Positions 10,297 through 19,020 of a stretch of DNA of 64,000 bases are shown one piece after another. Source of the stretch: a virus. The notes under the pieces are model-generated. The model searched no databases and was not told the DNA's origin. It worked only from the letters and a program-made list of their open reading frames with translations. Numbering within the stretch: position 1 is the first letter of the stretch; each line of letters begins with the position of its first letter. The DNA lies in IMG/VR virus record IMGVR_UViG_3300025313_000008, positions 24,378 through 88,377 of that record. One strand, written 5' to 3'. The translations under genes were made by a program, and so were the position numbers.

Positions 10297-10911
10297 TTAT
10301 TTCCTCGTAATGAAGTACTCCTGCTTCTTTCCTAATAGATTCAATACAAGCCCTGTAATATAGTTAACAGTTTCATTATTGCCAAGTCTTTCTTCATATT
10401 GCACTTGCTCTCTCTTTAAGAATTCCTTAACCTTATTATCTATTAGTTTTGCTCCATTAAAGCTTTCTTGTCTTCCTATTTTCAGATATGGTTTTACCCT
10501 CTTTATGTAAAAATTCAAATTATTATATTTTTTGAACTCCCTCATTACCATGGCATGATATAACTCATCAAGTGGATCTTGATATACACTGCTTAATAAA
10601 ATTGGAGAATCAGTAACCATTACATCTACTTTACCATTAAGTCTAAATTGTCTTTTTGCCTGTTCAGTAAAGATATCCAAATCATTTCTTTGAATGTGAA
10701 GCCTTTCCTCCCATACCAAATCCTTTGCATATTCTGATACATATTCAGCATTAATATTATGGTGTTTCAATAAAGTAAACACTCCAGTTGCACATGTGCT
10801 TTTTCCAGCTCCTGCTCCTGCAAACAAATTTACACATATTGTAGGTGTTTTAGCCGTATATCTTTTTTTAATGTATTCTGCTCTTTCTTTCTTGGTCAAT
10901 CTCTTTCTCAT
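10297..10911 (-). CDS. NadR/Ttd14-type AAA (P-loop) kinase
   Basis: NLFAGAGAGKST Walker A, EYVSEYAKDLVWE and VTDSPILLS, typical of viral NadR-like AAA_28 proteins. Confidence 0.75.
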   Translation of the reverse strand: MRKRLTKKERAEYIKKRYTAKTPTICVNLFAGAGAGKSTCATGVFTLLKHHNINAEYVSEYAKDLVWEERLHIQRNDLDIFTEQAKRQFRLNGKVDVMVTDSPILLSSVYQDPLDELYHAMVMREFKKYNNLNFYIKRVKPYLKIGRQESFNGAKLIDNKVKEFLKREQVQYEERLGNNETVNYITGLVLNLLGKKQEYFITRK

Positions 10912-11183
10912 TTGTTATCCTCTCTAAATTTTTCAATCTTATGTTTTAATCCCTCTTTTTTAAGATATTCAGGGTTAACATCATACATTATTGCTCCTTT
11001 ATCATATGCCGTCCATTTTATTGCACCTTTGTGTAATTTTTCAATTCCAGCCATTACTTTTTTACACCTATGACATCTAATAAAAATCTCTTCTCCCACT
11101 TCATGTCCATTTTCCTTTACCTCTTCATTATAATCTTCTGGACTCCAATCGTGGTCTAATAAACACTTTAATCTTCCAAACAT
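10908..11183 (-). CDS. Small Cys/His protein
   Basis: CLLDHDW ... RCHRC; overlaps its neighbour. Confidence 0.55.
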   Translation of the reverse strand: MFGRLKCLLDHDWSPEDYNEEVKENGHEVGEEIFIRCHRCKKVMAGIEKLHKGAIKWTAYDKGAIMYDVNPEYLKKEGLKHKIEKFREDNK

Positions 11184-11214
11184 TGTATATCTAACATCCT
11201 ATCCCTTATATTAA

Positions 11215-13182
11215 CTAAACCAATGTAACCTCATTACTTGGTTGTTGTACTGATATTACTCCATTTTTGGTTAGTTGGCTAATATATATTCTTGCTTCTT
11301 CAGCCGATTTCCATTTGCCACTAGATACCATTTGTGTTACTATATCATCTACAAATACACAACCTTCCTCAACAATTTTCTTCATTTCATGATATAATAC
11401 TCTAAATGCTACGTCTTTTGATGTTCTACCCATATCTTTTAATAAACCTGTTTGACTAAGTTTATCTGCTTCTGCAAGCGTAAGACCAAAAGTTGCTAAT
11501 TCCTTTTTATAGAATTCAACAGCCATATCAGCATATTCTTCCGTTACCTCTTCTTGAAGATCCAGTTTTGCAAACGCCTCAGCCTTTCTTTTTGATACAA
11601 CAATTCGTCTATTATCTATCAATGAATTTTTCTTATATTTGCCTCTCTCTGAAAATGCTAATGATAATTTATATATAGCTTTTTCTGACATTGTTGGTTC
11701 TAATAATCGAGCATAATTTAAAAACTCGTTTAATTCTTCTTCGCTTAATGTATTTTCAGGTCTTTTTTCATTGGCATCGTTTAATATAAACTTGGCAAGT
11801 TCAAAATCCTTTTGTGCGTCAGGTATATCATATAATCTTATTACTATGTCAAATCTTGAAACAACCCTATCTGTTAATCCTAGATTTTCCAGTATAGATA
11901 ATCTATCGTTCCATTCTGCGAATACAGGGTTGGTACAAGCTATTATGGTTGTACTACATGGAAAGGTTGGATTTCCATATCCTGTGATCGGTCTTGAATA
12001 TTCTTCGTTTTCCATTGCAGTTAATATCATATCATAAATCACTTTATCTCCTTTTTCAAATTCATCAAGAAATACGTGTCCTCCATTATATTTTACCAAA
12101 ACTCCTGCTCCTAATGCCTTTTTACCATCTGGCGTATCAACAACACCAAAAAATAATCCAAACTTACTAGCAGATGGAATACTTGTTAAACATCCTTTAC
12201 GAGATACAGCTTTAATGAATTTTGAAGTAGAAGACTTGGCTGAACCCGGCGGACCGACTATAAGTACATGAATTCTTCCACGCTTATTTTCTGTTTTATT
12301 TCCACCAACTAATGCCAATAAAAGAGCCATTTTTTGATCACTATTGCCAGTAATGTAGTAAGCAAAACTTCTAACCAGTAAATCTCTTAATTTTCCTTCC
12401 TTAGCCAATTTTTTATATTCTTCTATTTTTTCGGGTGTTGGTAATTTATCCTTTGGTTTTTCTATGCTTGTTACGCTTACTGCATCTATTATTATTTTAC
12501 TTACTTCAGTATTCTTCATTGGTATTGATTTAAACATTCCTGTAACTCTTATGTATTCATTCATTTTAAATTGTTTTGTTTGTTCACGATGAAGCTTTAC
12601 TGTAAATGTTCTATCGTCTATATCAAGTGTTATATCTTTTCCATCTTTTACATAAATGCTTTTTATTGTTTCTGATTCTGAATTTCCTATCCTTGTTAAA
12701 CGTTCTTCACATATAGGGCATTCCGGTCTTTCTTCATAAATATCAAATGAATATTCTTGTCCATCTCTACAACCTTTACATATAAAAAGTGCTTGAATTG
12801 CTTCAGCATATTCTTGTCCAACTGAAGAAACTTGACAATCAAAAGTAATAATTTTTCTTTCATGTTCTTCTGCACTGATGTTTTGGATAGTAATATCCAC
12901 TGGTATTTCTATAAATAAATCTATTCGTTGATATTCCTTTACGGTTTTTGATATTTCACTTAATTGTTCATCATTAAAATTACATTTAATATATGCCTTT
13001 ATCAGTGCTTTTCTAATCACATTTCTAAAATTACCTTTTGTTTCGCCAAGTACATTATTTAAAAATTCATTGTCCTTTAATGATATCTTGAAAACTGTTG
13101 TAGGAGTTAACGATTCTATATCTTCTAATCTCGTTGAAAGAAAATATTCAGATAATTCTTTTTCTAGCGTTAAAACTGTCAT
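11215..13182 (-). CDS. mcm: MCM replicative helicase
   Basis: N-terminal Zn finger (CKGC..CPIC), Walker A GPPGSAKS, Walker B VFLDEFEK, arginine finger SRFD and C-terminal wHTH. ATG 13182 is preferred because it lies 24 nt below a TATA box. Confidence 0.95.
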   Translation of the reverse strand: MTVLTLEKELSEYFLSTRLEDIESLTPTTVFKISLKDNEFLNNVLGETKGNFRNVIRKALIKAYIKCNFNDEQLSEISKTVKEYQRIDLFIEIPVDITIQNISAEEHERKIITFDCQVSSVGQEYAEAIQALFICKGCRDGQEYSFDIYEERPECPICEERLTRIGNSESETIKSIYVKDGKDITLDIDDRTFTVKLHREQTKQFKMNEYIRVTGMFKSIPMKNTEVSKIIIDAVSVTSIEKPKDKLPTPEKIEEYKKLAKEGKLRDLLVRSFAYYITGNSDQKMALLLALVGGNKTENKRGRIHVLIVGPPGSAKSSTSKFIKAVSRKGCLTSIPSASKFGLFFGVVDTPDGKKALGAGVLVKYNGGHVFLDEFEKGDKVIYDMILTAMENEEYSRPITGYGNPTFPCSTTIIACTNPVFAEWNDRLSILENLGLTDRVVSRFDIVIRLYDIPDAQKDFELAKFILNDANEKRPENTLSEEELNEFLNYARLLEPTMSEKAIYKLSLAFSERGKYKKNSLIDNRRIVVSKRKAEAFAKLDLQEEVTEEYADMAVEFYKKELATFGLTLAEADKLSQTGLLKDMGRTSKDVAFRVLYHEMKKIVEEGCVFVDDIVTQMVSSGKWKSAEEARIYISQLTKNGVISVQQPSNEVTLV

Positions 13183-13205
13183 TATAGTCACTTGTATTTA
13201 ACTGT

Positions 13206-13220
13206 ATTATAAACGTTTGT
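13206..13220 (-). promoter_or_regulatory. Promoter ACAAACGTTTATAAT upstream of mcm
   Basis: Same ACAAA(C)-TTTATA architecture as 17806..17820, 33073..33087 and 59284..59299; 24 nt to ATG. Confidence 0.7.
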
Positions 13221-13251
13221 GAATTAAGTAAATTTAAAGTTAAATAAAAAT

Positions 13252-13512
13252 TTAACTTGCAATTTGTTCTGAATGATAAAGTCTTTCATGTTCTTTATTT
13301 CCCTTATCTTTTTGATAGTAACCTTCACAATAAAGACATTTTGCATATGCGTCTTTTCCTAAAAATCGTTGTTTGTCTTTGTCTCTCCAACAATTACATG
13401 GTTCACCAGTTGCTGGATCTATTGGTGGTTGTGGTATACCTGTCCATGGCTTCCATGCCAAGGTCTTATCACAATTTCTACACTTTGGAGGCTCTCGCTT
13501 CACTTGGATCAT
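13252..13512 (-). CDS. Small zinc-finger protein
   Basis: CRNC...CNC and CLYC...HERLYH. Confidence 0.6.
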   Translation of the reverse strand: MIQVKREPPKCRNCDKTLAWKPWTGIPQPPIDPATGEPCNCWRDKDKQRFLGKDAYAKCLYCEGYYQKDKGNKEHERLYHSEQIAS

Positions 13513-13987
13513 CCCATAAACCTAATGCTTTGAGTACTTCCTCCTTTGATGCCATATCTATTTCATGACTTCTTTTAGGGTTCCACAAATTTGGAAATTT
13601 ATCTGCATAAAAATCATAAACTGCCCACTTTGCCTGACCAAGGGCTTCTTTTTGATACCAATCCTTTATACCTCTTTTTTTGGAAGCTTGATGTATAGCA
13701 CCCATTAATCTAATGGCGATCTTCTCAGATGGAATAGCAATATCCAAAACACAATTTGGAGCACTTGCACCATCAATCTTTAAATTCTTTACTACATATT
13801 CTTGTTTAACTAAAGCCACTCCCAATCTATCTCTCAAAATCCTAGCACATCTAACTTGTTCTCGGCGATATTCAGTATTTCCCTGTTCGCCCATGTTTCT
13901 TAATATCCAGTTACTGTTTCCCATTTTATCACCATAAGTAAAAAATAAATTTAAGCCTTTACCCCCAACACATATGGTTTGTTCCAA
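13478..13987 (-). CDS. DUF559/Vsr-like endonuclease-fold protein
   Basis: LDIAIPSEKIAI..MG.IH ... D..QKEAL...KW.V pattern. Confidence 0.6.
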   Translation of the reverse strand: MEQTICVGGKGLNLFFTYGDKMGNSNWILRNMGEQGNTEYRREQVRCARILRDRLGVALVKQEYVVKNLKIDGASAPNCVLDIAIPSEKIAIRLMGAIHQASKKRGIKDWYQKEALGQAKWAVYDFYADKFPNLWNPKRSHEIDMASKEEVLKALGLWDDPSEARASKV

Positions 13988-14202
13988 TATGGCGATTTAC
14001 ACCTTGGGTTAGGGCAATTTTTAGGCTCAACTGTTTCAACACCAATAATCTTTCCTACATTATTTCTCTCTACAACCGCTCTTAAAAACCACTCATAGTT
14101 ACAGGTTCTGCAAGAACGTTTTGGCGTTTGTAGGTAATTAAACTTGCTCCCCATGAAAGTTGTATATACTTTACTGAATATATACTTATAGCCACTTAGC
14201 AT
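13951..14202 (-). CDS. Zinc-ribbon protein
   Basis: CRTCNYEW ... PKNCPNPRCKSPYWN, a motif common in archaeal viruses. Confidence 0.7.
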   Translation of the reverse strand: MLSGYKYIFSKVYTTFMGSKFNYLQTPKRSCRTCNYEWFLRAVVERNNVGKIIGVETVEPKNCPNPRCKSPYWNKPYVLGVKA

Positions 14203-14861
14203 TTTATGACTACTGGTTCGTTAACCAAATTGTAATTTTCATTCACTACAGAACAGTTTATAAATGTAGTATCCTTTTTCTTGAGAATTCCATATCCTTC
14301 ATGGATGTGTCCAAATATGTTATATTTTGGCTTGTTTCTTTCAATTTTTACTAGTAATAACTCATCGCCTACATGTTCGTTGGGATTAAATCCTGTTTCT
14401 GCCACTTTATCCAATATGCCTTTTGGTGGACAATGAGTTAACAATATATCTGCATTTCTTGGCATCCCTTTCCATGCTCCCTTCATGTCATATCTAGGCT
14501 TACCAAATGCAAAATAGTTATAAACTTCACTATTCCATGGCGTATAAGGCGAACCCCAAATTTTTATTCCTTCTACTTCTACAGTATTATTTAACAGATA
14601 ATAGGCATTAGTAAATATCTTATATCCAAGTGCTTTATCCTTTCCTAATGATATATCATGATTACCAGCTATTACTATCTTATATGGATGTGGTTGTTTT
14701 CCAAACCAATCATTAAGATCCATTAATACGTCTATTTCTCCCGACATTGTTAAATCCCCCGCATGTAATAATATATCACCATCTGGAACGTTTACATGAT
14801 GATGAAACCCATGTGTATCAGATAAACAAACTATCTTAGTCAATTTTGTGTACTTCCACAT
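14196..14861 (-). CDS. Calcineurin-like metallophosphoesterase (MPPED/239FB type)
   Basis: SDTHG, HAGDLT, AGNHD, THCPP and FGHIHE motifs. Confidence 0.92.
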   Translation of the reverse strand: MWKYTKLTKIVCLSDTHGFHHHVNVPDGDILLHAGDLTMSGEIDVLMDLNDWFGKQPHPYKIVIAGNHDISLGKDKALGYKIFTNAYYLLNNTVEVEGIKIWGSPYTPWNSEVYNYFAFGKPRYDMKGAWKGMPRNADILLTHCPPKGILDKVAETGFNPNEHVGDELLLVKIERNKPKYNIFGHIHEGYGILKKKDTTFINCSVVNENYNLVNEPVVIKC

Positions 14862-14908
14862 ATCCAGAGCACTTCAAACAATGAAGCACTTCGTCTTTCC
14901 ACTCTGTA

Positions 14909-16291
14909 TTACACTGTGGGCATCTTTTCATGTAAATATTTCCCCTCAAAATTCTTTATATTTGCTTTTACTAGTTCTGATAATATTATTTTTTCTTGTG
15001 ATGTATTTTGTTCAAGTGCTAATTCTCTAATATCACTCCATTTTTGTCTTAATAATTTAGGACGCGTTGAATGCTCATCCATTTCATAAACTGTTTGATA
15101 AAGTCCTTTACTAGAATAATCTACAACTAAATTACCATTCTCTTTTATAATATTAACACAGCCGGGAATTGATCTCTTAAACGGATTTGATATTGTTAGC
15201 TTCATTCTGTCTTTTCCGTTTGAATATGCAGTTTTCATGGCATGACCTAGATAATCTCTATCTAAATCATTATAATAACCAGCTCCTATTCCATAACTCA
15301 TAAATTCAAGTGGTATTCCTTTTTCCTTTAATATCTTATCATATTCTTTTACCTTTTCAAATGACATTCCTTCTCCTATTATCATTGATACATTTTTGAA
15401 CTCCCAAAACTTCACTAATCCATAAATCTGTATAGTTTGGCTTAATACATCACCTGAATCAGGTCTTAATACAACATGGACTCCTTGTTTTTCTGCGTGT
15501 TCTAATACATCTCGCATCATTTCATGAATGAAACGACTTGGATCATATGTATCAATTACAAGTGCCACTATATTGTGACCTTTTTCTTTTACTTGATCAA
15601 TAGCATGAATAAATCCTTGTTTTTCACTATCAAACTGTTGTATAGTTTTATGTGCTGTTGCTGGAATGCTTCCTAATTTTGCCGTAGGACAATGATATTG
15701 ACCATGAAAATCATCTGTTCCTGTTAAGAACATATTCCATGCTGTAGTAGCCCAATATGCGTCTTCCAATGAACGATGCCCTCTAAATCCAAAGCTATGA
15801 AATCTATGTAATGGCAATTTATTTTCTACCAAATAATTCTTCATTTCAAGTGCTCTCGTTGCACATGCACTAGGAAAATATGAATGTAAAAATATTCCTT
15901 CCCACCATGTTACTAGTTCACCAAAACCTTCATCTGTATTGGTTATTTGAGCGAATGGCGTTCCTTGTGGAACCCATGTACCATCTGGAACTGCTTCTAC
16001 TTGAAGTGGTATCCAACCATGAAGTTTATCTATAACATTCATCCACATATCAACAGGGAACTTCATACCCATTTTTCTAGCACATTCGTCTGCTTCCATA
16101 ACCATCGACTCTTGAATCTTTTGATTTAACAGATTTATAACAATTTCGTTAAATCCATATAGTATCATTGGTCTTGATCTGTTGTAAATATGTGATATTT
16201 CATAATCTTGATTTTCTTTGAGATACCAGTGACTAAGATTATAACAGTCAGTTAATACCAATGGATTAAAACGTATATCATTAATAGTCAT
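14909..16291 (-). CDS. nadV: Nicotinamide phosphoribosyltransferase (NAMPT/NadV-like)
   Basis: TDCY..SH, FGFRG, GTD (Asp as in NAMPT rather than the Ser of NAPRT GTSN), IPATAH, IDTYD and RPDSGD. Confidence 0.88.
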   Translation of the reverse strand: MTINDIRFNPLVLTDCYNLSHWYLKENQDYEISHIYNRSRPMILYGFNEIVINLLNQKIQESMVMEADECARKMGMKFPVDMWMNVIDKLHGWIPLQVEAVPDGTWVPQGTPFAQITNTDEGFGELVTWWEGIFLHSYFPSACATRALEMKNYLVENKLPLHRFHSFGFRGHRSLEDAYWATTAWNMFLTGTDDFHGQYHCPTAKLGSIPATAHKTIQQFDSEKQGFIHAIDQVKEKGHNIVALVIDTYDPSRFIHEMMRDVLEHAEKQGVHVVLRPDSGDVLSQTIQIYGLVKFWEFKNVSMIIGEGMSFEKVKEYDKILKEKGIPLEFMSYGIGAGYYNDLDRDYLGHAMKTAYSNGKDRMKLTISNPFKRSIPGCVNIIKENGNLVVDYSSKGLYQTVYEMDEHSTRPKLLRQKWSDIRELALEQNTSQEKIILSELVKANIKNFEGKYLHEKMPTV

Positions 16292-17040: not shown

Positions 17041-17201
17041 TCGTCAACACCTATTAATTTGAATAGTGTAAAACCATTTTCTTCTAATGCTTCTTTCACT
17101 CGCCTATCAAATGCCACTTGTTCATAGTATGGCACATTTGCCTTAGTACGTACTTTCCATTCCCCATTTTTGTTTTGTCGTAAATCTATACTATACTTCA
17201 T
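17037..17201 (-). CDS. Hypothetical protein, 54 aa (not in track)
   Basis: MKYSIDLRQNKNGEWKV...GVDE*; ATGA overlap with the next gene. Confidence 0.55.
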   Translation of the reverse strand: MKYSIDLRQNKNGEWKVRTKANVPYYEQVAFDRRVKEALEENGFTLFKLIGVDE

Positions 17202-17625
17202 CTAATACCACGTACTTTTGATCTTTATCTTTCTTCTCTATATTAATGATTCGATTCTCAGTTGGACATTCGGGGTTCTTTGTAAAGTCATCTAATTTTC
17301 TTATACTCCATTCTGCTCCACCTTCCCCACATTGTGGTTCTATTAGTTTTACTAGAATAGCATTGAATTCAAATCCTTTGCAGTTTCTCCAATCTTTGAA
17401 TATTTTTACATGGGTCCCAGATTTAAAAACTGTTTCCTTTAGTCTTTCCTTATATGTAACATTTCTTGGTTTTGATCTTAATCTGTATCCGCAACATGGA
17501 CACCATAATCCTTCCCAATTCATATAAAGTTCACAAATCTGACATCGTCTTTGTCCAGAAGCATATCTTCCTATGCCTCTTGGTTTTGATGCTTTATGTC
17601 TTACACAAACGCCTTTACAAGTCAT
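17191..17625 (-). CDS. Thaumarchaeote-type Cys-rich zinc-binding protein with C-terminal extension
   Basis: MTCKGVCVRHKA.KP.G.GRYASGQRRCQICE....GLWCPCCGYRLRSKPRN closely resembles, from memory, a conserved small Nitrosopumilus/Nitrososphaera hypothetical protein. Confidence 0.7.
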   Translation of the reverse strand: MTCKGVCVRHKASKPRGIGRYASGQRRCQICELYMNWEGLWCPCCGYRLRSKPRNVTYKERLKETVFKSGTHVKIFKDWRNCKGFEFNAILVKLIEPQCGEGGAEWSIRKLDDFTKNPECPTENRIINIEKKDKDQKYVVLDEV

Positions 17626-17820: not shown

Positions 17821-19020
17821 TTATGCACTCGCGTCTTCGACTCCTTTATTAGTAAGTTCTAATATGGCTTCAGATTTTGCGTGATTTGGTGAATCTATTA
17901 TGATAGCTACTACCTTTTTACCACTTTTCTTTAGATATATCCTATGCGTAGATGTGTGTGATAATACTGTTCCACCTGATGCCTTTATTGGATCGCCAAA
18001 ACCAGTAGGTGATTGTAATACTTGGTTTGTTACGATACCAACTATATTGTATGTTTCACAAAGTCGTGATACATGCTTTATGTGTCTCTTTAGTTTCTCT
18101 TGTCTTTCACCTATTTCTCCTCTTCCAAAATAATCAAGCCTAAATGTTGCTGTAATAGAATCTATTATCAAAAGTCTTACTGGAGGTTGCCCTTCTTGAT
18201 TTATATATGAACCTAATTCTTGACCAACTAAAAGCTGATGTCCAGCATTTGCAACTTTAATCAATATTATATTATCAAAAAACTTCATAGCTTTTTCGCG
18301 TTCCTCGTCATTAAGTGGTTGTTTTGGATCTTTTCTTTTTTCTTCCATTTTAGTTTGTTCTTTTGTTTGAACCAAACCGCGTTCATATATGAGTTGTTCT
18401 ATCCTATCAGGTCTAAACGTGCCTTCAGTATCAACATAAATAACACGACAAGGCTTTCCTATTTCAGATAACCCGCCAACTGTTAATGTTTTTACATCAC
18501 ATGTTGGACATCTTTCTATTTTTTGATCCTCAAATACCTCATGACATTTAAAACATTTTCTCTTGTAAGGAAGTTGTGCCATAATGGTTGCCATAAAGCA
18601 AAACTGAGTTTTTCCAGCTCCAAACTCTCCATATAGTTCAGTTATAGCACTACTTTCAAATCCACCACTCATCATTTCATCAAATCCATTTACTCCACTA
18701 CTTAATGTATATCTTGTTGATGTCATATAATTATAAAATTCTCTTCCTGTAAATACTGCTTTTGCTACAACTCCTTTATCACGCAAGTATGTTCGTGCAT
18801 CTTCTATCATTTTTGTTGTATCACTAGAATCCATATCAAGTAATACGCCTAATTCTTTGGGTCCTCTTATTATTAAATCAGTTGCATCTAATATTCCTGC
18901 TTCTTGTAATTTCTTTAATTTAACAGGTCCAATTCCTTCTATATCTGCCAAATTAAAGCTAAGTGCTTCATCAACTTCCTTTAAGCTTTGTTCTATTTCT
19001 TCTTTTTTTCTAGGTGCCAA
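17821..19020 (-). CDS. radA: Archaeal recombinase RadA with two insertions
   Basis: N-terminal HhH (IEGIGPVKLKKLQEAG), Walker A GEFGAGKTQ, YVDTEGTFRPDRI, LIIDS, TNQV and GG.VL.HTST.RIY.KKSGKK. Confidence 0.95.
   Translation of the reverse strand: MAPRKKEEIEQSLKEVDEALSFNLADIEGIGPVKLKKLQEAGILDATDLIIRGPKELGVLLDMDSSDTTKMIEDARTYLRDKGVVAKAVFTGREFYNYMTSTRYTLSSGVNGFDEMMSGGFESSAITELYGEFGAGKTQFCFMATIMAQLPYKRKCFKCHEVFEDQKIERCPTCDVKTLTVGGLSEIGKPCRVIYVDTEGTFRPDRIEQLIYERGLVQTKEQTKMEEKRKDPKQPLNDEEREKAMKFFDNIILIKVANAGHQLLVGQELGSYINQEGQPPVRLLIIDSITATFRLDYFGRGEIGERQEKLKRHIKHVSRLCETYNIVGIVTNQVLQSPTGFGDPIKASGGTVLSHTSTHRIYLKKSGKKVVAIIIDSPNHAKSEAILELTNKGVEDASA

What the first reader, a model, noticed from the sequence alone, without database searches (positions are those of the whole stretch)
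10297..16291. NAD+ salvage potential in an archaeal virus: NAMPT plus NadR-like kinase
Seen: an intact NAMPT-type gene (GTD signature) and a NadR-type P-loop kinase 4 kb away. No NMNAT or PRPP-synthetase-like partner is visible in the window. Established: bacteriophages rebuild NAD+ with NARP1 (Adps plus Namat) or NARP2 (Nampt plus Nmnat) to defeat SIR2/TIR-type NAD-depleting defences. Inference: thaumarchaeal viruses face NADase immunity and use a variant route, possibly with host NadM.
Basis: partly seen in the sequence, partly recalled or inferred. Interest (0 to 1): 0.62.

Follow-up and report, generated by a model that had tools for sequence, protein, structure and literature searches.

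The report
Nampt NAD-salvage gene, archaeal virus
A 98-kb tailed virus that probably infects soil ammonia-oxidising archaea carries an intact gene for Nampt, the enzyme that turns nicotinamide into the NAD+ precursor NMN, and apparently leaves the last step to its host; the 'NadR-like' kinase 4 kb away is real but is not shown to belong to the same pathway.

Summary
Both genes exist as described. ORF 14909-16291(-) is a 460-aa Nampt-family protein. It keeps all the catalytic residues I checked, and its high-confidence model superposes on human NAMPT (Z 33.8). ORF 10297-10911(-) is a 204-aa P-loop kinase of Pfam AAA_28 whose model is closest to NadR ribosylnicotinamide-kinase domains (Z 17.2, against 14.7 or less for thymidylate kinases).

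The 98-kb record (83% complete) holds no NMNAT, Prs/Adps, Nudix, PnuC or Macro gene. The Nampt belongs to a deep third clade, separate from the phage Nampt and Namat references used. In Bacillales that clade sits directly before an NMNAT gene. It also occurs in some Nitrososphaeraceae and in a lineage of their viruses. It lacks both halves of the Namat adenine clamp, so PRPP-type Nampt is the best reading.

Of 101 sampled genomes of the candidate host family, 100 match archaeal NMNAT and about 20 carry SIR2_2 proteins like the Thoeris NADase effector ThsA.

The kinase link is weak. Its family is widespread in phages, mostly beside dUTPase, RNR and dCMP-deaminase genes. Nampt lies within 10 kb in 2 of 80 loci. 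One related virus has Nampt without the kinase.

Verdict: a Nampt-only, host-completed version of NARP2, the phage Nampt-plus-Nmnat NAD+ rebuilding pathway, in an archaeal virus. The counter-defence role is untested.

The parts
14909..16291 (-). Nampt-family nicotinamide phosphoribosyltransferase, 460 aa, member of a divergent third clade
   Evidence: Hits Pfam NAPRTase and NAMPT_N, PHROG 448, and NF006629 at 181 bits, below its 405-bit cut-off. The alignment to human NAMPT keeps the Y18, F193, R196, D219, H247, R311, D313 and R392 equivalents. AF2 model pLDDT 90.2; Z 33.8, rmsd 2.7 A over 414 residues to human NAMPT.
10297..10911 (-). Stand-alone AAA_28 P-loop kinase with a NadR-RNK-like fold; substrate unknown and membership in the NAD route not shown
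   Evidence: Pfam AAA_28. PHROG 2107, labelled 'thymidylate kinase', 1.4e-15. AF2 model pLDDT 89.7. NadR RNK domains score Z 15.8-17.2 against 14.7 or less for thymidylate kinases. hhalign to the E. coli NadR RNK domain gives probability 79%, E 1.6e-5; to E. coli Tmk, probability 7%.
14196..14861 (-). MPPED2-family metallophosphoesterase, 47 nt downstream of Nampt; possible partner, unproven
   Evidence: Pfam Metallophos. Rat MPPED2 (3rl4) E 1.2e-41. PADLOC candidate defence family PDC-S10 E 2.7e-75 over its full length. It sits next to Nampt only in the close relatives L004, L119-L121 and L124.
17191..17625 (-). Zn-ribbon protein (orf144) that travels with Nampt in all viral relatives; context marker, function unknown
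   Evidence: Four Cys pairs at the N-terminus. No family hit. 59-80% identical and close to Nampt in L004, L119-L134, L143 and L175.

Best explanation
The 460-aa gene encodes an active, PRPP-dependent nicotinamide phosphoribosyltransferase (Nampt). It makes NMN from nicotinamide and PRPP inside the infected cell. The virus has no adenylyltransferase of its own, so the host's archaeal NMNAT (NadM type) converts that NMN to NAD+. The effect is to rebuild or raise NAD+ during infection. That would also blunt NAD+-cleaving (SIR2/TIR) immunity, because nicotinamide is one of the cleavage products.

The gene belongs to a clade shared by Bacillales, Nitrososphaeraceae and Nitrososphaeraceae-type viruses. 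It was probably picked up within the pool of genes exchanged between this host group and its viruses.

The AAA_28 kinase 4 kb away is a separate gene of the replication module (MCM - kinase - Cas4-like nuclease). It more likely phosphorylates a nucleoside or (deoxy)nucleotide for DNA synthesis than nicotinamide riboside.

Shown here: gene integrity, family, fold, conserved residues, absence of a viral NMNAT or Adps gene in the held record, and presence of NMNAT and SIR2-type genes in the candidate host family. Inferred: the substrates, completion of the pathway by the host, and the counter-defence role.
For: - **Catalytic core:** the equivalents of Tyr18, Phe193, Arg196, Asp219, His247, Arg311, Asp313 and Arg392 are kept and are invariant in the clade.
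- **Fold:** the model has pLDDT 90.2 and scores Z 33.8 to human NAMPT and Z 32.6 to Xanthomonas Nampt.
- **Not Namat:** the helix motif reads G-A-G-Y-Y-N-D-L-D-R-D. Residue 3 is Gly as in Nampt, and residue 7 is not aromatic. The beta1-beta2 loop is 7-11 residues shorter than in the reference Nampt and Namat proteins (criteria from PMC12774641). No Prs/Adps gene was found.
- **Partner in cellular relatives:** about 50%-identical Bacillales genes are followed directly by an NMNAT gene in most loci. In Paenibacillus the order is NrtR - Nampt - NMNAT - HD. That implies NMN is the product.
- **Host supply:** archaeal NMNAT (TIGR01527) was found in 100 of 101 sampled Nitrososphaeraceae genomes, 71 of them above the cut-off.
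- **Host link:** the viral sequences nest with Nitrososphaeraceae sequences in the tree, with SH-aLRT support of 98.
- **Possible pressure:** SIR2_2 proteins occur in 20-21 of 101 genomes, and the examples checked match ThsA and TIR models.
- **Precedent:** Nampt plus Nmnat (NARP2) overcomes Thoeris and DSR2 in bacteria (10.1101/2024.02.11.579819).
- **Kinase context:** in 74 phage loci its neighbours include dUTPase (13), NrdD (8), NrdG (7), NT5C (6) and dCMP deaminase (4). Nampt lies within 10 kb in 2 of 80 loci.
Against: - There is no biochemistry for any member of this clade.
- The protein scores 181 bits against a 405-bit cut-off for the NCBIfam Nampt-type equivalog NF006629 (named nicotinate phosphoribosyltransferase). 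It lies on a very long branch away from both the reference Nampt and Namat proteins.
- The Asp354 equivalent is Glu. The helix motif carries Phe/Tyr-Tyr at positions 4-5, so some use of an adenine-bearing donor is not excluded.
- The record is 83% complete, and relatives were only seen within 10 kb either side of the gene, so an NMNAT gene elsewhere is possible.
- Among phages, 94% of Nampt carriers also encode Nmnat, so a Nampt-only design is unusual.
- The kinase is structurally closest to NadR RNK domains.
- Myxococcus phage Mx1 groups a homologue of the kinase with Nampt, two cytidylyltransferase-like genes and a Macro-domain gene.
- The virus has no dUTPase or ThyX gene that would fit a thymidylate route.
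Confidence: 0.6

Rival explanations
1. The AAA_28 protein is a stand-alone nicotinamide riboside kinase, that is, a NadR RNK domain without its NMNAT half. The virus then has two routes to NMN (nicotinamide + PRPP, and nicotinamide riboside + ATP), both finished by host NadM.
For: - It hits Pfam AAA_28.
- The five best structural matches are NadR RNK domains, Z 15.8-17.2.
- hhalign to the E. coli NadR RNK domain gives probability 79% with a shared EY[AG][KR]D segment, against 7% for Tmk.
- The kinase accompanies Nampt in 7 related viral loci, down to 55% Nampt identity.
- Phage Mx1 clusters a homologue with Nampt and cytidylyltransferase-like genes.
- The virus has no dUTPase or ThyX gene.
Against: - In the viral relatives the kinase always sits between MCM and the Cas4-like nuclease, so the pairing may reflect only shared gene order.
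- It is missing from that slot in L166, which still has Nampt.
- Only 2 of 80 phage loci have Nampt within 10 kb. In one of them (L092) the kinase abuts dUTPase, 6.6 kb from the Nampt-Nudix pair.
- CcrBL9 has both this kinase and a complete NadR.
- No PnuC transporter was found that could supply nicotinamide riboside.
- Longer forms of the family carry an unknown C-terminal extension, not an NMNAT domain.
Confidence: 0.25
2. The Nampt is a host-derived auxiliary metabolic gene. It simply raises NAD+ supply for viral replication, with no relation to immunity.
For: - The clade is present in about 9 of 101 Nitrososphaeraceae genomes, in cellular-looking contexts.
- Viral copies nest among the host copies.
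- NARP2 raises NAD+ even in cells without a defence system.
- The gene sits in the replication/recombination module, not in an obvious anti-defence island.
Against: - No NAD+-consuming viral enzyme was recognised among the ORFs scanned.
- Defence-type SIR2 and TIR-SIR2 proteins exist in the host family.
- The adjacent gene matches a candidate defence-island family.
- The two roles do not exclude each other.
Confidence: 0.3
3. The enzyme is Namat-like. It joins nicotinamide to an ADP-ribose-derived donor made by an unrecognised viral enzyme, giving NAD+ directly without any NMNAT.
For: - It would explain the lack of an NMNAT gene.
- The helix motif has aromatic residues at positions 4-5 and often His at position 7 in the clade.
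- Namat and Nampt share their catalytic core.
Against: - No Prs/Adps homologue was found in the record.
- Position 3 is Gly, as in Nampt. In this virus position 7 is Asp.
- The loop half of the clamp is deleted.
- Cellular clade members pair with NMNAT, not with Prs.
Confidence: 0.07

Closest known systems
NARP2 of Vibrio phage KVP40 (Nampt NadV + bifunctional Nmnat/Nudix NatV); 10.1101/2024.02.11.579819
   Same: A virus-encoded Nampt-family enzyme with the same catalytic residues and fold, and the same predicted chemistry: nicotinamide + PRPP gives NMN, which is then made into NAD+.
   Different: - No viral Nmnat or Nudix gene, so the last step must be the host's.
- The host is an archaeon.
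- The protein is only about 25-27% identical to phage Nampts and lies in a separate deep clade.
Bacillales chromosomal NrtR - Nampt - NMNAT operons (Paenibacillus, Cohnella, Bacillus gaemokensis)
   Same: Same Nampt clade at 48-56% identity, with the same motif set: short beta1-beta2 loop, HSFG, A[TL]AHK, IGEG, G[SA]GFY.
   Different: The bacterial genes have an NMNAT gene immediately downstream and, in L005, an NrtR regulator upstream. The viral copies have neither.
Namat of NARP1 (SPbetaL1, Bas63-type Felixounavirus, BPS13); PMC12774641
   Same: Homologous fold and catalytic core; also used by viruses to restore NAD+.
   Different: [quoted passage not shown] All three were tested here and are absent.
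NadR ribosylnicotinamide kinase domain (E. coli, H. influenzae 1lw7, L. lactis 6gyf; phage Bas30_86 of NARP3, PMC13464706)
   Same: The kinase shares Pfam AAA_28, gives the best structural match (Z up to 17.2), and has Walker A, an EY[AG][KR]D segment, a Walker B Asp and a lid G-R in the same order.
   Different: It stands alone, with no fused or neighbouring NMNAT and no PnuC. It is only about 15-20% identical. In phages its family sits in nucleotide-metabolism contexts.
Stand-alone AAA_28 'thymidylate kinase' genes of large phages (PHROG 2107; CcrBL9 gp142, S-CBWM1 gp051, Lak phages)
   Same: Direct sequence relatives at 33-39% identity over 70-92% of the protein, of the same size and domain.
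   Different: None has been characterised. The 'thymidylate kinase' name is an annotation, and the profile comparison with true Tmk is poor.

Membership tests
Nampt (PRPP-dependent nicotinamide phosphoribosyltransferase, NadV) | Type II phosphoribosyltransferase fold with the NAMPT N-terminal domain | tested here: met
   Pfam NAPRTase and NAMPT_N. AF2 model Z 33.8, rmsd 2.7 A, 414 residues aligned to human NAMPT.
Nampt (PRPP-dependent nicotinamide phosphoribosyltransferase, NadV) | Catalytic and substrate residues: Tyr18, Phe193, Arg196, Asp219 (nicotinamide selectivity), His247, Arg311, Asp313, Arg392 in human numbering (residue roles from my own knowledge of the NAMPT structures) | tested here: met
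   Query Y17, F167, R170, D193, H214, R276, D278 and R345 align to these residues, and all are invariant in the clade. The Asp354 equivalent is Glu307.
Nampt (PRPP-dependent nicotinamide phosphoribosyltransferase, NadV) | Score above the curated cut-off of NF006629, the NCBIfam equivalog that best matches this protein (NCBIfam names it nicotinate phosphoribosyltransferase) | tested here: not met
   181.4 bits against a cut-off of 405: a divergent clade, not the canonical orthologue group.
Nampt (PRPP-dependent nicotinamide phosphoribosyltransferase, NadV) | Makes NMN from nicotinamide and PRPP | not testable with these tools
   Needs an enzyme assay. The indirect support is the NMNAT neighbour in Bacillales clade members.
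NARP2 (viral Nampt + Nmnat pair) | A virus-encoded Nmnat in the same genome | tested here: not met
   No PF01467 match in the 98-kb record. No NMNAT within 10 kb of Nampt in any viral relative. The record is 83% complete.
Namat / NARP1 | An Adps (Prs-like) partner gene | tested here: not met
   No PF13793 match in the record. The reference Namat genes of REP5 and BPS13 have a Prs-like gene directly upstream.
Namat / NARP1 | [quoted passage not shown] | tested here: not met
   The query reads G-A-G-Y-Y-N-D-L-D-R-D. The Namat references read G-S-Y-T-Y-x-Y-x-T-R-D.
Namat / NARP1 | A beta1-beta2 loop that supplies an adenine-stacking Arg, Lys or Tyr | tested here: not met
   The loop is 7-11 residues shorter than in the Nampt and Namat references.
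NadR RNK domain / Pfam AAA_28 | AAA_28 profile above cut-off, with Walker A, Walker B and a lid Arg | tested here: met
   35.4 bits against a cut-off of 27. G34, K37, S38, T39, D101, G146 and R147 are invariant in 29 homologues.
NadR RNK domain / Pfam AAA_28 | Fold closest to solved RNK domains | tested here: met
   8x7f Z 17.2, 6gyf 16.7, 1lw7 15.8; the best thymidylate kinase scores 14.7. hhalign probability 79% over 142 columns.
NARP3 (NadR + PnuC) | An NMNAT domain fused or adjacent, and a PnuC transporter | tested here: not met
   No PF01467 or PF04973 match in the record. Longer family members carry an unknown C-terminal extension, not an NMNAT domain.
NadR RNK domain / Pfam AAA_28 | Nicotinamide riboside kinase activity | not testable with these tools
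   Needs an enzyme assay.
Thymidylate kinase (label of PHROG 2107) | Sequence-profile similarity to true Tmk | tested here: inconclusive
   PHROG 2107 at 1.4e-15, but hhalign to E. coli Tmk gives probability 7% over 54 columns. Fold similarity is Z 14-14.7.

The most novel reading that the evidence does not exclude
The virus carries a small kit against NAD+-cleaving immunity that works through the host's own NadM. Nampt rebuilds NMN from the nicotinamide that SIR2/TIR effectors release. The adjacent MPPED2-type phosphodiesterase, a homologue of the defence-island candidate PDC-S10, destroys a nucleotide or ADPR-type immune signal. The NadR-like kinase adds a second route to NMN from nicotinamide riboside. 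This would be the first NAD+-centred counter-defence described for a virus of archaea.
Probability: 0.15. Interest if true: 0.7.

Novelty: new variant of a known kind. Interest (0 to 1): 0.42.

Why it matters
All experimentally studied viral NAD+ rebuilding pathways (NARP1, NARP2, NARP3) come from bacteriophages. In the papers I could search I found no report of Nampt in a virus of ammonia-oxidising or other archaea.

If this Nampt is active, the contest over NAD+ extends to archaea that matter for the nitrogen cycle. It would also show a cheaper design in which the virus supplies only the Nampt step, because archaeal hosts already have an NMNAT (archaeal NMNATs are known to accept NMN; not tested here for these hosts).

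The work also marks out a third, uncharacterised clade of the Nampt/Namat family, found in Bacillales, Nitrososphaeraceae and their viruses. Its donor specificity should be measured.

The practical weight is moderate. The gene family and the chemistry are known, and nothing here tests function.

Tried and rejected
1. **Namat reading.** Rejected on three tested features: no Adps gene, wrong helix motif, and the loop deleted.
2. **Hidden NMNAT in the conserved neighbours.** orf144 is a Zn-ribbon protein. It and orf169 have no family hit and no (T/H)xGH-type motif.
3. **General Nampt-kinase linkage.** tblastn of Nampt against 80 IMG/VR loci centred on kinase homologues found 2 hits, not clearly above what chance would give.
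4. **Sequence search of the kinase against solved structures.** Nothing significant with the single sequence or the profile. The best hits, E about 0.07-0.1, were APS kinase, deoxyguanosine kinase and RecA.
5. **NR-binding residues.** The L. lactis NadR paper has no ligand in the RNK site. The Bas30_86 site residues come from a model, and I had no sequence to map them onto. No residue-level test was possible.
6. **More viral relatives.** Single-protein scans of IMG/VR with the kinase and with orf144 returned only the one relative already known.
7. Co-location of homologues on metagenome contigs rests on matching contig lengths and on the 80 loci.
8. **Tree.** Only the quick tree finished; the careful search did not.
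9. **Literature.** No paper joined Nampt with thaumarchaeal or archaeal tailed viruses.
Full report
**Setting**

The window is bases 24378-88377 of a 98,399-bp IMG/VR virus record that CheckV estimates to be 83% complete. It has about 33% G+C and nearly all its genes lie on the minus strand. The replication genes are of archaeal type: MCM, a Rad51/RadA recombinase, a Cas4-like PD-(D/E)XK nuclease, PCNA and a primase-polymerase. I read it as a tailed archaeal virus. Earlier notes of this scan on the same genome also say it probably infects ammonia-oxidising archaea (one says soil). My own support for that host is the Nampt tree described below.

ORF 14909-16291(-) encodes 460 aa. It hits Pfam NAPRTase and NAMPT_N and PHROG 448, and its best solved relatives are NAMPT chains at E 1e-28. 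In the printed alignment to human NAMPT the query keeps the equivalents of Tyr18, Phe193, Arg196, Asp219 (within G-T-D), His247, Arg311, Asp313 and Arg392. All of these are invariant across 15 clade members. The residue roles are from my own knowledge of the NAMPT structures. A model built on 25 homologues has pLDDT 90.2 and superposes on human NAMPT with Z 33.8, rmsd 2.7 A over 414 residues, and on Xanthomonas Nampt with Z 32.6.

ORF 10297-10911(-) encodes 204 aa and hits Pfam AAA_28 above its cut-off. The two genes are 3,998 bp apart. Between them lie an MPPED2-like phosphoesterase, small ORFs and MCM.

Searches of the whole record found no cytidylyltransferase-like (NMNAT), Prs N-terminal, Nudix, PnuC, Macro, dUTPase or ThyX domain.

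**What kind of Nampt this is**

All 1,578 phage records with a homologue are below 30% identity in the rows shown. The protein also scores below the cut-off of NF006629, the NCBIfam equivalog it matches best (181 against 405 bits; NCBIfam names that family nicotinate phosphoribosyltransferase). Its close relatives fall into three groups:
- metagenomic sequences at 55-87% identity;
- chromosomal genes of Paenibacillus, Cohnella, Aneurinibacillus, Alicyclobacillus and Bacillus at 48-56%;
- Nitrososphaeraceae MAG genes at 43-47%.

A quick maximum-likelihood tree puts all of these on one very long branch, away from both my reference Nampts (phi-ST2, a Mesorhizobium phage, Mx1, L092) and my reference Namats (REP5, BPS13). 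Inside the clade the Bacillales are basal, and the archaeal and viral sequences form a nested group with SH-aLRT support of 98. Only the quick tree finished. The root is a midpoint and the branches are long, so the order of transfer is not settled.

[quoted passage not shown] My alignment gave these results:
- The Namat references read G-S-Y-T-Y-x-Y-x-T-R-D.
- The Nampt references read G-[AG]-[GA]-L-L-Q-x-x-x-R-D.
- This clade reads G-[AS]-G-[FY]-Y-[NK]-[DH]-[LI]-D-R-D.
- The beta1-beta2 loop of this clade is the shortest of all, 7-11 residues shorter than the references.

Both halves of the clamp are therefore missing, and there is no Adps gene.

The Bacillales members are followed directly by an NMNAT gene in most loci. 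In Paenibacillus xanthanilyticus the order is NrtR - Nampt - NMNAT - HD. An NMNAT partner implies that NMN is the product. I therefore read the clade as a PRPP-type Nampt with an unusual active-site entrance. The Phe/Tyr-Tyr pair in the helix motif and the Asp354-to-Glu change keep a small doubt open.

**Completing the pathway**

No viral relative shows an NMNAT within 10 kb of Nampt. Among bacteriophages, 94% of Nampt carriers also encode Nmnat (10.1101/2024.02.11.579819). In 101 sampled genomes of the family that holds the Nitrososphaeraceae homologues, 100 match the archaeal NMNAT model TIGR01527 at E of 1e-49 or better, and 71 are above the curated cut-off, usually with two copies. It is established knowledge, not tested here, that archaeal NMNATs accept NMN, while the main bacterial enzyme NadD prefers NaMN. 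That would explain why an archaeal virus can do without its own adenylyltransferase. This step is inference.

**Is there NADase immunity to counter?**

SIR2_2 domains occur in 20-21 of the same 101 genomes. Two tandem examples match PADLOC ThsA SIR2 models at E 1e-15 to 1e-22. Another is a TIR-SIR2 fusion. This shows candidate NAD+-cleaving defence proteins in the host family. It does not show that they act, or that this virus meets them.

About 9 of the 101 genomes also carry the Nampt clade themselves, so the viral gene could equally be a borrowed metabolic gene.

The samples include unpublished genomes (G078 in both; G037 and G100). Only the tallies rest on them, and I left the G078 sequence out of the tree.

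**The kinase**

A model with pLDDT 89.7 is closest to NadR ribosylnicotinamide-kinase domains: 8x7f Z 17.2, 6gyf 16.7, 1lw7 15.8. Thymidylate kinases follow at Z 14.7 or less. The profile comparison with the E. coli NadR RNK domain gives probability 79%, E 1.6e-5 over 142 columns, with matching Walker A, an EY[AG][KR]D segment, the Walker B Asp and a lid G-R. The same comparison with E. coli Tmk gives probability 7%. 'NadR-type P-loop kinase' is therefore a fair description of family and fold.

Function is another matter.
- The family is widespread in viruses: at least 398 IMG/VR stretches and 101 phage records, mostly annotated thymidylate kinase or AAA ATPase.
- In 74 loci the recurring neighbours are dUTPase (13, often directly downstream), NrdD (8), NrdG (7), the 5'-deoxynucleotidase NT5C (6), dCMP deaminase (4), DNA polymerase B, UvsX and DnaB.
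- In cyanophage S-CBWM1 it lies among primase, dCMP deaminase and RNR genes.
- Nampt lies within 10 kb in 2 of 80 loci. In one of them (L092) the kinase abuts dUTPase, 6.6 kb from a Nudix-Nampt pair.
- Caulobacter phage CcrBL9 has both this kinase and a full NadR-like gene.
- In the archaeal-virus lineage the kinase always sits between MCM and the Cas4-like nuclease. It is absent from that slot in L166, which keeps Nampt.

Against this stand three points. Phage Mx1 groups a 33%-identical homologue with Nampt, two cytidylyltransferase-like genes and a Macro-domain gene. The present virus has no dUTPase or ThyX gene. The fold is closest to RNK. I put a nucleotide- or nucleoside-kinase role in DNA precursor supply at about 0.5, nicotinamide riboside kinase at about 0.25, and other roles at the rest.

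**The neighbour worth noting**

The gene 47 nt downstream of Nampt is an MPPED2-family metallophosphoesterase (E 1.2e-41 to rat MPPED2). It matches the PADLOC candidate defence family PDC-S10 over its full length (E 2.7e-75). It accompanies Nampt only in the closer relatives. A phosphodiesterase that removes a nucleotide signal beside an enzyme that restores NAD+ would make a coherent pair, but nothing here tests that.

**Comparison and verdict**

In mechanism this looks like NARP2 without its second enzyme. In sequence it belongs to an uncharacterised third clade of the Nampt/Namat family, shared with Bacillales NrtR-regulated salvage operons and with Nitrososphaeraceae. It is not Namat and not NARP3.

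The scan has noted the same Nampt-plus-kinase pairing on another genome. It has also noted the same motif variants in an operon with NMNAT and Nudix genes, which agrees with what I found.

I rate it a new variant of a known kind, of moderate interest. The host-NadM idea is plausible and partly supported. The kinase link and the anti-defence role remain unproven.

Noticed in passing
window 14196-14861 (-): An MPPED2-family metallophosphoesterase lies directly after Nampt. It matches the PADLOC candidate defence family PDC-S10 over its full length (E 2.7e-75) and rat MPPED2 (E 1e-41). A virus copy of a defence-island gene could be a signal-degrading counter-defence enzyme.
   Followed up: partly
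window 11215-13191 (-) and 17821-19020 (-); loci L004, L119-L121, L124: Between flanking genes that are 80-93% identical, MCM is only 32-33% identical in L004, L119, L121 and L124 but 58% in L120. RadA is 51-55% against 78%. The replication and recombination genes look like swapped cassettes within one conserved module.
   Followed up: no
window 17191-17625 (-): A 144-aa protein with an N-terminal multi-Cys Zn-ribbon and no family hit. It stays 59-80% identical and close to Nampt in every viral relative, so it is better conserved than Nampt itself (68% in L143, where Nampt is 48%).
   Followed up: partly
L015, L016, L018 (Aneurinibacillus, Alicyclobacillus, Bacillus methanolicus): A well-supported Bacillales subclade of this Nampt lacks the NMNAT neighbour. 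In B. methanolicus (L018) the next gene belongs to the OMP-decarboxylase/HUMPS family, and an enolase-superfamily gene and a HAD hydrolase lie nearby. This may be a different use of the enzyme.
   Followed up: no
L116 (Myxococcus phage Mx1, OR576727.2 118209-130670): About 10 kb hold two cytidylyltransferase-like genes, Nampt, an SPFH protein, a stand-alone AAA_28 kinase (annotated as NMNAT) and a Macro-domain protein. This may be an extended NAD/ADPR module in a bacteriophage.
   Followed up: partly
L202 691-2085 (+) and L201 1174-3410 (+) (Nitrososphaeraceae genomes G050, G097): Nitrososphaeraceae genomes carry a TIR-SIR2 fusion protein and a tandem pair of ThsA-like SIR2 proteins. These are candidate NAD+-cleaving defence genes in ammonia-oxidising archaea.
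   Followed up: partly
L001 10255-10851 (-), L001 14677-15135 (-), L002 4169-4999 (-) (same virus record, outside the window): The virus also encodes a Mom-family protein (E 8e-34), a dual-specificity phosphatase and a matrixin-like metallopeptidase.
   Followed up: no
P0227, P0228, P0235 (metagenome proteins, 325-332 aa): Longer members of the kinase family carry a C-terminal extension of about 150 aa with no Pfam match, not an NMNAT domain.
   Followed up: partly
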